Below are positions 7,173-7,245 of a stretch of 11,833 bases of DNA, one piece after another. The stretch is from a virus (taxonomy: Duplodnaviria > Heunggongvirae > Uroviricota > Caudoviricetes): IMG/VR virus record IMGVR_UViG_2778261064_000021, positions 1 to 11,833 of that record; one strand, given 5' to 3'. The stretch's first letter is position 1. The number at the start of each line of letters is the position of its first letter. The translations under genes were made by a program, and so were the position numbers. A model generated the notes under the pieces. That model searched no databases. It was not told the DNA's origin and was given only the letters and a program-made list of their open reading frames with translations.

Positions 7173-7245
7173 CATGATAATTTCATGATTTGCAACAACA
7201 GTCAATATCATTGCAAAAAATGCAACTATGATTAAAATCATGACT
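7173..7245. promoter_or_regulatory. Putative promoter/operator region of the capsid operon, with repeated ATGAT and TTGCAA motifs in dyad arrangement
   Basis: catgataa (7173), tcatgatt (7183), tttgcaa (7189-7195) / ttgcaaa (7211-7217) inverted pair, tgcaact (7221), ctatgatt (7226), atcatgac (7237). Confidence 0.4.

What the first reader, a model, noticed from the sequence alone, without database searches (positions are those of the whole stretch)
7173..7245. Dyad-symmetric repeat cluster upstream of the capsid operon (candidate operator for helper-dependent activation)
Repeated (c/t)ATGAT and TTGCAA motifs in mirrored arrangement lie between the ssb terminators and the first capsid-operon gene. 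Satellite packaging operons are typically switched on by helper late activators or by island regulators such as AlpA, so this is a plausible binding region.
Basis: inference. Interest (0 to 1): 0.4.

Follow-up and report, generated by a model that had tools for sequence, protein, structure and literature searches.

The report
Promoter-operator of a satellite's capsid operon
The repeat cluster is the conserved promoter and operator region that switches on the capsid genes of a common E. coli phage satellite; its layout looks built for repression rather than activation, the protein that binds it is still unknown, and this island lacks the SOS (LexA) box that nearly all its relatives carry there.

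Summary
Window 7173-7245 is 27% G+C and holds 5 ATGAT/ATCAT and 5 TGCAA/TTGCA copies; 0 of 5000 shuffles reach both counts.

The window is an EcCICFT073-type phage-inducible chromosomal island (PICI). The cluster lies after two terminator hairpins, just upstream of a 68-aa ORF, a lambda-E-like capsid gene and a D-like decoration gene.

In 90 related islands the conserved core is:
- a sigma-70 promoter, TTGCAA(7211-7216)-16-TAAAAT(7233-7238);
- two 17-bp dyads RTTKCA-N5-TGMAAY, O2 at 7180-7196 and O1 at 7210-7226, 30 bp centre to centre;
- a palindrome over the -10 (7228-7241).

O1 and the -10 palindrome overlap the polymerase contacts, so the geometry suggests repression, not activation.

The dyads do not vary across four alpA alleles and four replication-module types. 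They are absent from alpA promoters, from phi80 regulatory sites and from the helper-type prophage beside EcCICFT073.

The binder is unidentified. Candidates are the operon's own first product (weakly ribbon-helix-helix-like), host CytR (matching half-site) and an AlpA-family protein.

85 of 90 relatives, including EcCICFT073, carry a LexA-like box right after the -10. This window has none there, but has a strong one upstream of alpA.

The parts
7046..7075 (+). Intrinsic terminator after ssb: 10-bp G+C-rich stem followed by a U-run
   Evidence: RNA fold of 7030-7125: centroid hairpin 7046-7069 followed by UUUUUU. Whole stretch -44.8 kcal/mol, z = -4.97.
7077..7114 (.). Second hairpin (14-bp stem, 7084-7114) flanked by A8 on the left and a short T-run on the right. 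It looks like a bidirectional terminator that insulates the capsid promoter.
   Evidence: fold; sequence read.
7180..7196 (.). Operator-like dyad O2, ATTTCA-TGATT-TGCAAC, centred about -57
   Evidence: Matches ATTGCA-N5-TGCAAT with 2 mismatches. The stretch is 94% identical between the window and the family-B consensus. The same 17-bp unit is kept in Salmonella and other islands, with the weak half on either side (L089, L091).
7197..7209 (.). 13-bp spacer between the dyads, with a conserved (C/G)TCAA(T/C) core at 7201-7206. Its length is invariant in all relatives.
   Evidence: On the minus strand AGTCAA reads as a -35-like TTGACT of a divergent promoter-like match.
7210..7226 (.). Operator-like dyad O1, ATTGCA-AAAAA-TGCAAC, centred about -27. 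It overlaps the -35 hexamer and the spacer.
   Evidence: One mismatch to ATTGCA-N5-TGCAAT. 88% identical to the family-B consensus. Half-site matrix from 180 half-sites: R T T K C A W, with T2 179/180, T3 179/180, C5 178/180.
7211..7216 (+). -35 hexamer TTGCAA
   Evidence: Promoter scan: TTGCAA-16 nt-TAAAAT, 9 of 12 matches.
7228..7241 (.). Palindrome ATGATT-AA-AATCAT over the -10. The conserved core in relatives is TGATTAWAATCA.
   Evidence: The core is kept in 45 unique promoters, beyond what the -10 hexamer alone needs.
7233..7238 (+). -10 hexamer TAAAAT (TATAAT in 85 of 90 relatives)
7244..7246 (+). Predicted transcription start, inferred from the -10 and not mapped
   Evidence: Inference. 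In relatives the LexA-like box starts 3-4 nt after the -10, i.e. over this position.
7247..7290 (+). Unstructured, T-rich 5' leader with Shine-Dalgarno AGAGGAA at 7277-7283. It has no LexA box and no terminator hairpin in this island.
   Evidence: Fold of 7243-7300: -5.9 kcal/mol, z = +0.87. Best LexA PWM score downstream of the -10: -0.6.
7291..7497 (+). First gene of the operon, 68 aa (phrog_3255, no known function). It has a ribbon-helix-helix-like sequence pattern and is a candidate autoregulator.
   Evidence: Pfam hits are sub-threshold only (BrnA_antitoxin E = 0.017, RHH_1 E = 0.15-0.2). AlphaFold2 pLDDT 64.
7497..8552 (+). Major capsid protein, lambda gpE family
   Evidence: phrog_29 E = 5.6e-103; Phage_cap_E in homologues; RefSeq annotation of homologues.
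8565..8900 (+). Head decoration protein, lambda gpD family
   Evidence: Pfam HDPD E = 3.1e-16.
2317..2336 (.). LexA box TACTGTGTTTTAATCCAGTA, 50 nt upstream of the alpA start (2386). It is the only SOS box in the window and lies outside the finding.
   Evidence: PWM score 21.8, inside the range of the 22 training boxes (13.1-27.6). The next best in the window scores 11.5. It is also present in L001 (24.1).

Best explanation
The cluster is the promoter-operator region of the island's capsid operon (68-aa ORF, capsid, decoration protein, 134-aa ORF).

Shown:
- Two hairpin terminators close the upstream ssb unit.
- A sigma-70 promoter, TTGCAA-16-TAAAAT, sits 53 nt upstream of the first start codon.
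- It is embedded in two 17-bp dyads of consensus RTTKCA-N5-TGMAAY, separated by an invariant 13-bp gap (30 bp centre to centre, about three helical turns).
- A third palindrome lies over the -10.
- All of this is under stronger constraint than the flanking DNA and the adjacent coding sequence.

Inferred:
- A sequence-specific dimeric (or dimer-of-dimers) protein binds O2 and O1 cooperatively on one face of the helix.
- Because O1 covers the -35 and spacer, and the -10 palindrome covers the -10, occupancy blocks RNA polymerase. This is negative control.
- The operators travel with the capsid module, not with alpA or the replication module. The binder is therefore encoded in the module or supplied by every host.

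My split for the binder: first-gene product (ribbon-helix-helix-like autorepressor) about 0.25; host CytR about 0.15; an AlpA-family protein about 0.15; a helper-encoded factor about 0.1; another host factor about 0.2; no specific binder (promoter elements, curvature or H-NS only) about 0.15.

In 85 of 90 relatives a LexA box immediately after the -10 adds direct SOS repression. This island has lost that box and instead carries a LexA box in front of alpA, so any SOS input here would be indirect.
For: - Promoter. In relatives the -10 is a perfect TATAAT.
- Insulation from upstream transcription.
- Constraint: O2 94%, O1 88% and the -10 block 87% identity between the window and the family-B consensus, against 39% upstream, 61% in the leader and 59% at third codon positions.
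- Module boundary: homology with more distant islands starts at window position 7170, the left edge of the cluster.
- Dyad definition: 180 half-sites from 45 unique promoters give R T T K C A W, with three almost invariant positions. The gap length is always 13.
- Specificity: the dyad pattern occurs only at this promoter in 912 kb of island DNA, with 4 other matches, about the chance number.
- Independence from alpA and replication modules.
- LexA box in relatives at a fixed position, with different box sequences. L089 has a canonical CACTGTATATAAATTCAGTT, which shows that this promoter is the functional one and is intrinsically active enough to need repression.
- EcCICFT073 itself has the same architecture.
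- c1498-c1501 of CFT073 change expression together on a 23 to 37 C shift (PMC12890032), consistent with one transcription unit starting here.
- Small ORF: always present with O1/O2 and absent from the 82 clade-2 islands that lack O1/O2. Weak RHH-type Pfam hits. The family is tiny and confined to these islands.
Against: - No transcription start, footprint or reporter data exist.
- The -35 is only 4 of 6 here and 3 of 6 in most relatives.
- O2 at about -57 is a classic activator position. In clade-2 islands the same heptamers (ATTGCAC, GTTGCAT) are direct repeats at about -40 to -60 of an extended -10 promoter, which looks like activation.
- Those islands have no small ORF, which argues against the small ORF being the only binder of TTGCA-type sites.
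- The RHH assignment is below every curated threshold. The model is low-confidence, and structure and profile searches found nothing.
Confidence: 0.5

Rival explanations
1. Activator site. AlpA, the AlpA-family protein, or a helper late activator binds the dyads and recruits RNA polymerase to a weak promoter, so the capsid genes come on only after helper induction.
For: - AlpA is an activator of EcCICFT073 genes (PMC6092414).
- O2 is near -57.
- The -35 is weak.
- Clade-2 islands carry TTGCA direct repeats upstream of a promoter without a -35, and an AlpA-family gene inside the capsid operon (Pfam PF05930, E = 7.6e-9).
- The window's alpA promoter shares two 9-mers (ATTGCAAAA, CTATGATTA) with the cluster (sequence read).
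Against: - O1 and the -10 palindrome overlap core promoter elements.
- The -10 is consensus in relatives, and they need a LexA box to keep the promoter shut.
- No RTTKCA-N5-TGMAAY dyad occurs in the alpA promoters of four alleles.
- The operators do not vary with the alpA allele.
- No similarity to phi80 or lambda late-promoter sites.
Confidence: 0.15
2. Host CytR operator. The TTGCA/TGCAA octamers are bound by the host cytidine repressor, whose flexible linker tolerates inverted or direct half-sites at several spacings. This would tie capsid expression to nucleoside or cAMP status.
For: - Published CytR motifs are TGCAA-N2-3-TTGCA, TTGCAA, AYGTGCAAC-N10-13-GTTRCATT, or direct octamer repeats (PMC3454398).
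- Window 7219-7226, AATGCAAC, is the exact complement of GTTGCATT.
- O2-right (TTTGCAAC) and O1-left (ATTGCAAA) are in the canonical orientation with a 13-nt spacer.
- A host factor explains why the site does not vary across island modules.
- It also explains why clade-2 islands use the same heptamers as direct repeats.
Against: - CytR normally needs flanking CRP sites within 5 nt. None is recognisable, by inspection only.
- The unit that is conserved is the 17-bp dyad, including half-sites with TTTCA and no G. L091's O2 is ATTTCATATTATGAAAT.
- There is no obvious physiological rationale.
Confidence: 0.12
3. Q-like or AlpA-like antitermination site. The element in the spacer (the right half of O1) is a loading site for a helper or island antiterminator, as for lambda Q or Pseudomonas AlpA, whose binding elements lie between -35 and -10.
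For: - The conserved AAAATGCAAY lies in the spacer, where sigma-70 needs no specific sequence.
- Binding elements of lambda Q and of P. aeruginosa AlpA are in that position (PMC9371919).
- Family-B leaders have a hairpin plus T-run that the scan calls terminator-like.
- A -10-like TATGTT/TATGAT lies at about +12 to +17.
Against: - The window's leader is unstructured (z = +0.87).
- The family-B hairpin is better explained as a LexA box, because L089 has a non-hairpin canonical box at the same place.
- No similarity to the lambda or phi80 Q sites.
- This reading does not explain O2 or the dyad symmetry.
Confidence: 0.06
4. No dedicated binder. This is an A+T-rich horizontally acquired promoter whose repeats reflect overlapping promoter-like hexamers and curved DNA, silenced by H-NS.
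For: - 27% G+C against 48% for the window.
- A-tracts are present.
- The equivalent CFT073 genes respond to a 23 to 37 C shift (PMC12890032), a typical H-NS behaviour.
Against: Near-invariance of specific positions (T2, T3, C5) in four half-sites, exact 13-bp spacing and preserved dyad symmetry across E. coli, Salmonella and other hosts are not expected from composition alone.
Confidence: 0.12

Closest known systems
SaPI operon I promoter (LexA-controlled packaging operon of staphylococcal pathogenicity islands; Ubeda et al. 2007, cited in PMC6092414)
   Same: It is a separate promoter for the satellite's morphogenesis and packaging genes, downstream of the replication module. In 85 of 90 relatives of this island, including EcCICFT073, a LexA-like box sits directly on that promoter.
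   Different: This window has no LexA box at the capsid promoter (best score -0.6). Its only LexA box is upstream of alpA. The promoter also carries two extra 17-bp dyads and a -10 palindrome that have no described counterpart in SaPIs. There is no sequence homology.
Lambdoid OR/OL-type operator arrays (17-bp dyads bound cooperatively by CI/Cro dimers)
   Same: 17-bp dyads of 6-5-6 or 7-3-7 form, two sites on the same face, one overlapping the -35 and spacer.
   Different: Centre-to-centre distance is 30 bp rather than 23-24 bp. The half-site RTTKCA does not match the phi80 CI operators. No such dyads occur in the immunity region of the CFT073 icd prophage. No CI-like gene is in the island.
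CytR operators of the E. coli nucleoside regulon (PMC3454398)
   Same: The octamer GTTGCATT / AATGCAAC, the TTGCAA palindrome, and the long-spacer (13-nt) inverted arrangement.
   Different: No flanking CRP sites were recognised. The conserved TTTCA half-sites are not CytR-like. The gene context is unrelated to nucleoside metabolism.
Ribbon-helix-helix autoregulated operons (Arc/Mnt of P22, CopG, omega)
   Same: A small first-gene product with a beta-strand-helix-helix sequence pattern, encoded next to dyad repeats that overlap its own promoter.
   Different: RHH membership of the 68-aa protein is not established: only sub-threshold Pfam hits and a low-confidence model. The same half-sites occur in clade-2 islands that lack the protein.

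Membership tests
Sigma-70 promoter | -35 and -10 hexamers with 16-18 nt spacing, correctly placed for the downstream gene | tested here: met
   TTGCAA-16-TAAAAT, 9 of 12. The -10 is TATAAT in 85 of 90 relatives. It lies 53 nt upstream of the ATG and downstream of two terminators.
Sigma-70 promoter | Mapped transcription start | not testable with these tools
   No 5' end data were available. c1498-c1501 co-regulation in CFT073 (PMC12890032) is indirect support only.
LexA (SOS) box at the capsid promoter | CTGT-N8-ACAG-type 20-mer scoring within the range of known E. coli boxes and overlapping the promoter | tested here: not met
   Best score downstream of the -10 in the window is -0.6, against a training range of 13.1-27.6. 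85 of 90 relatives score 16.5-22.4 at a fixed position. Leaving out the ruvAB box changes nothing.
CytR operator | Two octamers related to GTTGCATT, in inverted or direct orientation, at a permitted spacing | tested here: met
   TTTGCAAC-N13-ATTGCAAA, plus AATGCAAC at 7219-7226, compared with the motifs quoted in PMC3454398.
CytR operator | At least one CRP site within about 5 nt of the CytR site | tested here: inconclusive
   No TGTGA-N6-TCACA match better than 7 of 10 by inspection. The -10 palindrome has CRP/FNR-like TGA-N6-TCA geometry but lacks the specificity bases. No PWM scan was run.
Lambda CII-activated promoter | TTGC-N6-TTGC direct repeat flanking the -35 | tested here: not met
   In the window the TTGC copies are 21 nt apart, and TGC copies 9 nt apart. 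Clade-2 islands do have TTGC-N6-TTGC, but 27 nt from the best -10.
Q-type antitermination site (qut) | A binding element resembling that of a helper Q, a sigma-dependent pause element, and a downstream terminator | tested here: not met
   No similarity to lambda PR' beyond one 11-mer upstream of O2, nor to phi80 PR' or its Q site. The leader has no hairpin.
AlpA-activated promoter | A shared site with the alpA promoter, which AlpA activates (PMC6092414) | tested here: not met
   No RTTKCA-N5-TGMAAY dyad upstream of alpA in four alleles. The dyad pattern occurs only at the capsid promoter in 912 kb.
Ribbon-helix-helix regulator (first gene product) | A significant match to an RHH family, or a confident beta-alpha-alpha model | tested here: inconclusive
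   RHH_1 E = 0.15-0.2 and BrnA_antitoxin E = 0.017 in a few homologues, all below the cut-offs. hhalign to CopG is in the right register but with probability below 1%. AlphaFold2 pLDDT 64 with two helices in the expected places. Foldseek found nothing.
cos packaging site | Similarity to lambda cosQ-cosN-cosB | tested here: not met
   The finding region scores 34 against lambda cos, which is background (29 +/- 5). Window 9294-9501 scores 115 and is the island's cos site.
PICI replication origin iterons | Iterons immediately 3' of the primase/rep gene that co-vary with the initiator | tested here: not met
   The cluster is 1.1 kb downstream of pri, beyond orf66 and ssb. It is unchanged in islands with P4-type primase, RepA-type helicase, DUF927 or DUF5906 initiators.

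The most novel reading that the evidence does not exclude
The dyads RTTKCA-N5-TGMAAY are the operators of a previously unrecognised regulator that gates capsid-gene expression in the commonest family of E. coli and Salmonella PICIs. The regulator would be either the 68-aa first-gene product, as a new RHH-like autorepressor family confined to satellites, or the host CytR co-opted by a satellite. It would act together with LexA in most islands and alone in this lineage. That would make the capsid module a self-contained, separately switched cassette that can be shuffled between islands.
Probability: 0.3. Interest if true: 0.55.

Novelty: new member of a known kind. Interest (0 to 1): 0.4.

Why it matters
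EcCICFT073-type islands are the model Gram-negative PICIs. The family-B version of this promoter plus the small ORF is present in 591 of 5426 complete E. coli genomes.

The literature I could search describes control of alpA but not how the capsid/decoration operon is switched, nor why the islands keep capsid genes that are dispensable for transfer.

Two things follow from a defined promoter with two conserved operators and, in most islands, a LexA box:
- The analogy with LexA-controlled SaPI operon I becomes directly testable.
- There are precise targets (T2, T3 and C5 of the half-sites, and the box) for reporter and footprint experiments, and for engineering PICI-based delivery vehicles.

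For this window the practical message is that its capsid promoter is the LexA-less variant.

Tried and rejected
- **cos site:** rejected. The lambda cos alignment is at background for the cluster, and the real cos is at 9294-9501.
- **Replication origin iterons:** rejected on position and on independence from the initiator type.
- **LexA box in the cluster:** none.
- **Homology to phage DNA:** blastn of 7150-7500 and 7165-7260 against 50,697 phage records gave only chance hits, such as T4 gp29 coding sequence and phiKZ.
- **Helper operator mimicry:** phi80 CI operators, Q site and PR', lambda PR' and the CFT073 icd prophage carry no such dyads.
- **Scan of IMG/VR for dyad pairs with 3-12 nt gaps:** 119 stretches, almost all coding repeats in unrelated viruses. 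One gut phage group with GTTTCA-N5-TGCAAC pairs was not followed further.
- **Small ORF identity:**
  - PDB profile search, AlphaFold2 plus Foldseek, and hhalign to CopG and Arc gave nothing significant.
  - NCBIfam gave nothing.
  - tblastn against phages gave no match.
  - A CopG homologue search returned only close relatives and was of no use for a profile.
- **Covariation between the small ORF's putative beta-strand and the half-sites:** both are nearly invariant, so the test is uninformative.
- **An alternative promoter using TATCAT (7206-7211) or TATGTT (7256-7261) as the -10:** these elements are not conserved.
- **Genome-contig scan with the capsid protein:** only two loci, though these opened up clade 2.

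Full report
**What the window is.**
- The 11.8-kb window is a phage-inducible chromosomal island of the EcCICFT073 type, inserted between gcd and hpt.
- Its genes are:
  - int, 1-1227;
  - a 309-aa ORF;
  - alpA, 2386-2670 (phrog_2790);
  - a 214-aa ORF with an Icd-like C-terminus;
  - DUF4222;
  - a P4-type primase, 4274-6079;
  - ssb, 6610-7032;
  - then a 68-aa ORF (7291-7497), a lambda-E-family capsid gene (7497-8552), a lambda-D-family decoration gene (8565-8900) and a 134-aa ORF;
  - a cos site, 9294-9501;
  - a Nu1-like TerS/Rpp gene, 9517-10101.
- In EcCICFT073 the equivalent genes are c1498-c1501, with c1499 the capsid and c1500 the decoration gene (PMC6092414). Rpp is c1503 (PMC6739421).

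- Window 7173-7245 is 27% G+C against 48% for the whole window.
- It holds five ATGAT/ATCAT and five TGCAA/TTGCA copies. 16 and 32 of 5000 dinucleotide shuffles reach those counts, and none reaches both.
- The repeat finder reports 22-nt mirrored arms and many short dyads.
- Upstream, two strong hairpins (7046-7069 with a U-run, and 7084-7114 flanked by A8) fold with z = -4.97. Transcription from ssb should therefore stop before the cluster.

**Anatomy from comparison.**
- I collected the homologous region from four RefSeq E. coli genomes, 80 IMG/VR contigs, six contigs found through the small protein, and EcCICFT073 itself. That gives 90 promoters, 45 of them unique over the operator stretch.
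- BLAST homology with the more distant islands begins at window 7170, the left edge of the cluster.
- Identity between the window and the consensus of the main family ('B') is:

| Stretch | Identity |
|---|---|
| 7180-7196 | 94% |
| 7210-7226 | 88% |
| 7227-7241 | 87% |
| Upstream flank | 39% |
| Leader | 61% |
| Third codon positions of the next ORF | 59% |

- The conserved elements are:
  - a sigma-70 promoter, TTGCAA(7211-7216)-16-TAAAAT(7233-7238), whose -10 is TATAAT in family B;
  - two 17-bp dyads, O2 ATTTCA-TGATT-TGCAAC (7180-7196) and O1 ATTGCA-AAAAA-TGCAAC (7210-7226);
  - a palindrome over the -10, ATGATT-AA-AATCAT (7228-7241), with conserved core TGATTAWAATCA.
- 180 half-sites give R-T-T-K-C-A-W, with T2 179/180, T3 179/180 and C5 178/180. 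The gap between the dyads is always 13 bp, so 30 bp centre to centre.
- In L089 the weak (TTTCA) half of O2 is on the other side. In the helper-embedded Salmonella island L091, O2 is the perfect palindrome ATTTCATATTATGAAAT.
- Of the ATGAT copies, only the pair around the -10 is conserved in place.
- With the start predicted at about 7245, O1 is centred near -27 and O2 near -57.

**A LexA box in relatives, but not here.**
- With it, 85 of 90 related promoters have a LexA-like 20-mer that starts 3-4 nt after the -10. Most are AACTGGATGAACATCCAGTT, scoring 16.5-22.4. For comparison the ruvAB box scores 19.1, and leaving it out of the matrix changes nothing.
- L089 has a canonical CACTGTATATAAATTCAGTT at the same position. 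This argues for LexA rather than an RNA hairpin, although the promoter scan also calls the family-B palindrome plus T-run terminator-like.
- EcCICFT073 itself has this box.
- The exceptions are the window, L001, L007 and L030 ('family A', -10 TAAAAT), and L066, which has a 1-nt insertion. The window's best score there is -0.6, and its leader is unstructured (z = +0.87).
- The window's only LexA box is TACTGTGTTTTAATCCAGTA at 2317-2336 (score 21.8), 50 nt upstream of alpA. L001 has it too. The other three alpA alleles do not.
- I found no paper in the searchable library that links LexA to the E. coli PICI capsid operon. The known parallel is LexA control of SaPI operon I.

**Who binds the dyads.**
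- *AlpA and replication modules.* The dyads are the same in islands with four alpA alleles and four initiator types. They occur nowhere else in 912 kb of island DNA beyond the chance number. They are absent from the alpA promoters, which AlpA activates (PMC6092414).
- *Helper phage sites.* The dyads do not resemble the annotated phi80 CI operators, Q site or PR'. Lambda PR' shares only an 11-mer upstream of O2. The lambdoid prophage next to EcCICFT073 has no such dyads. Phage databases hold no homologue of the region.
- This leaves a factor encoded in the capsid module or present in every host.
- *The 68-aa first-gene product.*
  - It is always present with O1/O2.
  - Its sequence has a beta-strand-helix-helix pattern (GGVSVYISPDIv..L, then PSvGW.VRs.L).
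  - It gives only sub-threshold RHH-type Pfam hits.
  - The AlphaFold2 model is poor (pLDDT 64), and no structural or profile match was found.
  - The family is tiny, with 14 representatives among 1.84 billion proteins, and is absent from phage genomes.
- *Against the small ORF as the sole binder.* A second clade of PICIs has a capsid about 55% identical. None of its 82 islands has the small ORF, and they carry an AlpA-family gene after the decoration gene. They hold the same heptamers (ATTGCAC, GTTGCAT) as two to four direct repeats at a 10-bp period, upstream of an extended -10-like element.
- *Host CytR.* The half-site equals the published CytR octamer GTTGCATT. O2-right and O1-left fit the long-spacer class, TGCAAC-N13-RTTGCA (PMC3454398). 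However, no CRP site is evident and the TTTCA half-sites do not fit.

**Mechanism I commit to.**
- The cluster is the promoter-operator of the capsid operon.
- A dimeric site-specific protein occupies O2 and O1 on one face of the helix. Together with whatever recognises the -10 palindrome, it occludes the -35/spacer and the -10. This is negative control (confidence about 0.5).
- The promoter, the dyads, their conservation and their positions are shown. Binding, its sign and the binder are inferred.
- Supporting the idea that the promoter is intrinsically active: relatives need a LexA box on it, and c1498-c1501 of CFT073 rise together on a 23 to 37 C shift without deliberate helper induction (PMC12890032).
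The tests I could run do not favour it.

**Verdict.** This is a real, conserved and so far undescribed regulatory region of an ordinary kind, a promoter with operators. The binder is open, and there is an interesting lineage difference in SOS wiring. Interest is moderate.

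Noticed in passing
window 2317-2336: A strong LexA box, TACTGTGTTTTAATCCAGTA (PWM 21.8), lies 50 nt upstream of the alpA start. It is shared with L001 and absent upstream of the three other alpA alleles. It suggests SOS-controlled alpA in this lineage, whereas alpA of EcCICFT073 was reported to respond to the helper and not to SOS (PMC6092414).
   Followed up: partly
L294 348-440 (EcCICFT073) and 85 of 90 related loci, position equivalent to window 7241-7262: A LexA-like box (mostly AACTGGATGAACATCCAGTT) lies directly after the -10 of the capsid-operon promoter of the model PICI and nearly all relatives. It parallels LexA-controlled SaPI operon I. I found no description of it in the searchable literature.
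   Followed up: yes
window 9294-9501: This stretch aligns with lambda cosQ-cosN-cosB (score 115 against 29 +/- 5 for shuffles). It is the island's cos site, immediately upstream of the Nu1-like/Rpp gene. The cosN core differs from lambda's.
   Followed up: partly
window 2271-2280 / 2294-2303: A perfect 10-bp inverted repeat, CATACTGATA / TATCAGTATG, with repeated AAGCAT, lies upstream of the LexA box in the alpA promoter region. It may be the site for whatever induces alpA.
   Followed up: no
L005, L006, L094-L173, about 60-110 nt upstream of the capsid gene: A second clade of PICIs lacks the small ORF. It has two to four direct repeats of ATTGCAC/GTTGCAY at a 10-bp period (TTGC-N6-TTGC, like lambda CII sites), plus conserved CTTTATACA and GTGATAGCATTATC boxes. 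It also has an AlpA-family gene (PF05930) inside the capsid operon after the decoration gene.
   Followed up: partly
window 7205-7177, minus strand: A divergent promoter-like match, TTGACT-17-AATTAT with an upstream TG, has a spacer that contains O2. It would transcribe about 90 nt into the bidirectional hairpin at 7114-7077. The transcribed part is not conserved between families.
   Followed up: no
window 7169-7179 versus lambda 44534-44544 (L093 135-145): The 11-mer ACGGCATGATA is shared with the DNA just upstream of the lambda PR' -35. It is present only in the window and partly in its closest relatives, so it is probably chance.
   Followed up: partly
L091, L092: Salmonella islands with the same capsid promoter architecture lie next to a GpA_ATPase (large terminase) fragment. 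They are helper-embedded PICIs of the kind described in PMC10111431.
   Followed up: no
window 7228-7241 and relatives: The -10 palindrome has CRP/FNR-family geometry (TGA-N6-TCA). It matches the FNR consensus TTGAT-N4-ATCAA at 8 of 10 positions in the window and 9 of 10 in L089.
   Followed up: no
L269 4778-4822 and five similar IMG/VR contigs of 40-50 kb: An unrelated gut phage group carries GTTTCA-N5-TGCAAC pairs, 12 nt apart, in a divergent intergenic region. These have the same dyad form as O2.
   Followed up: no
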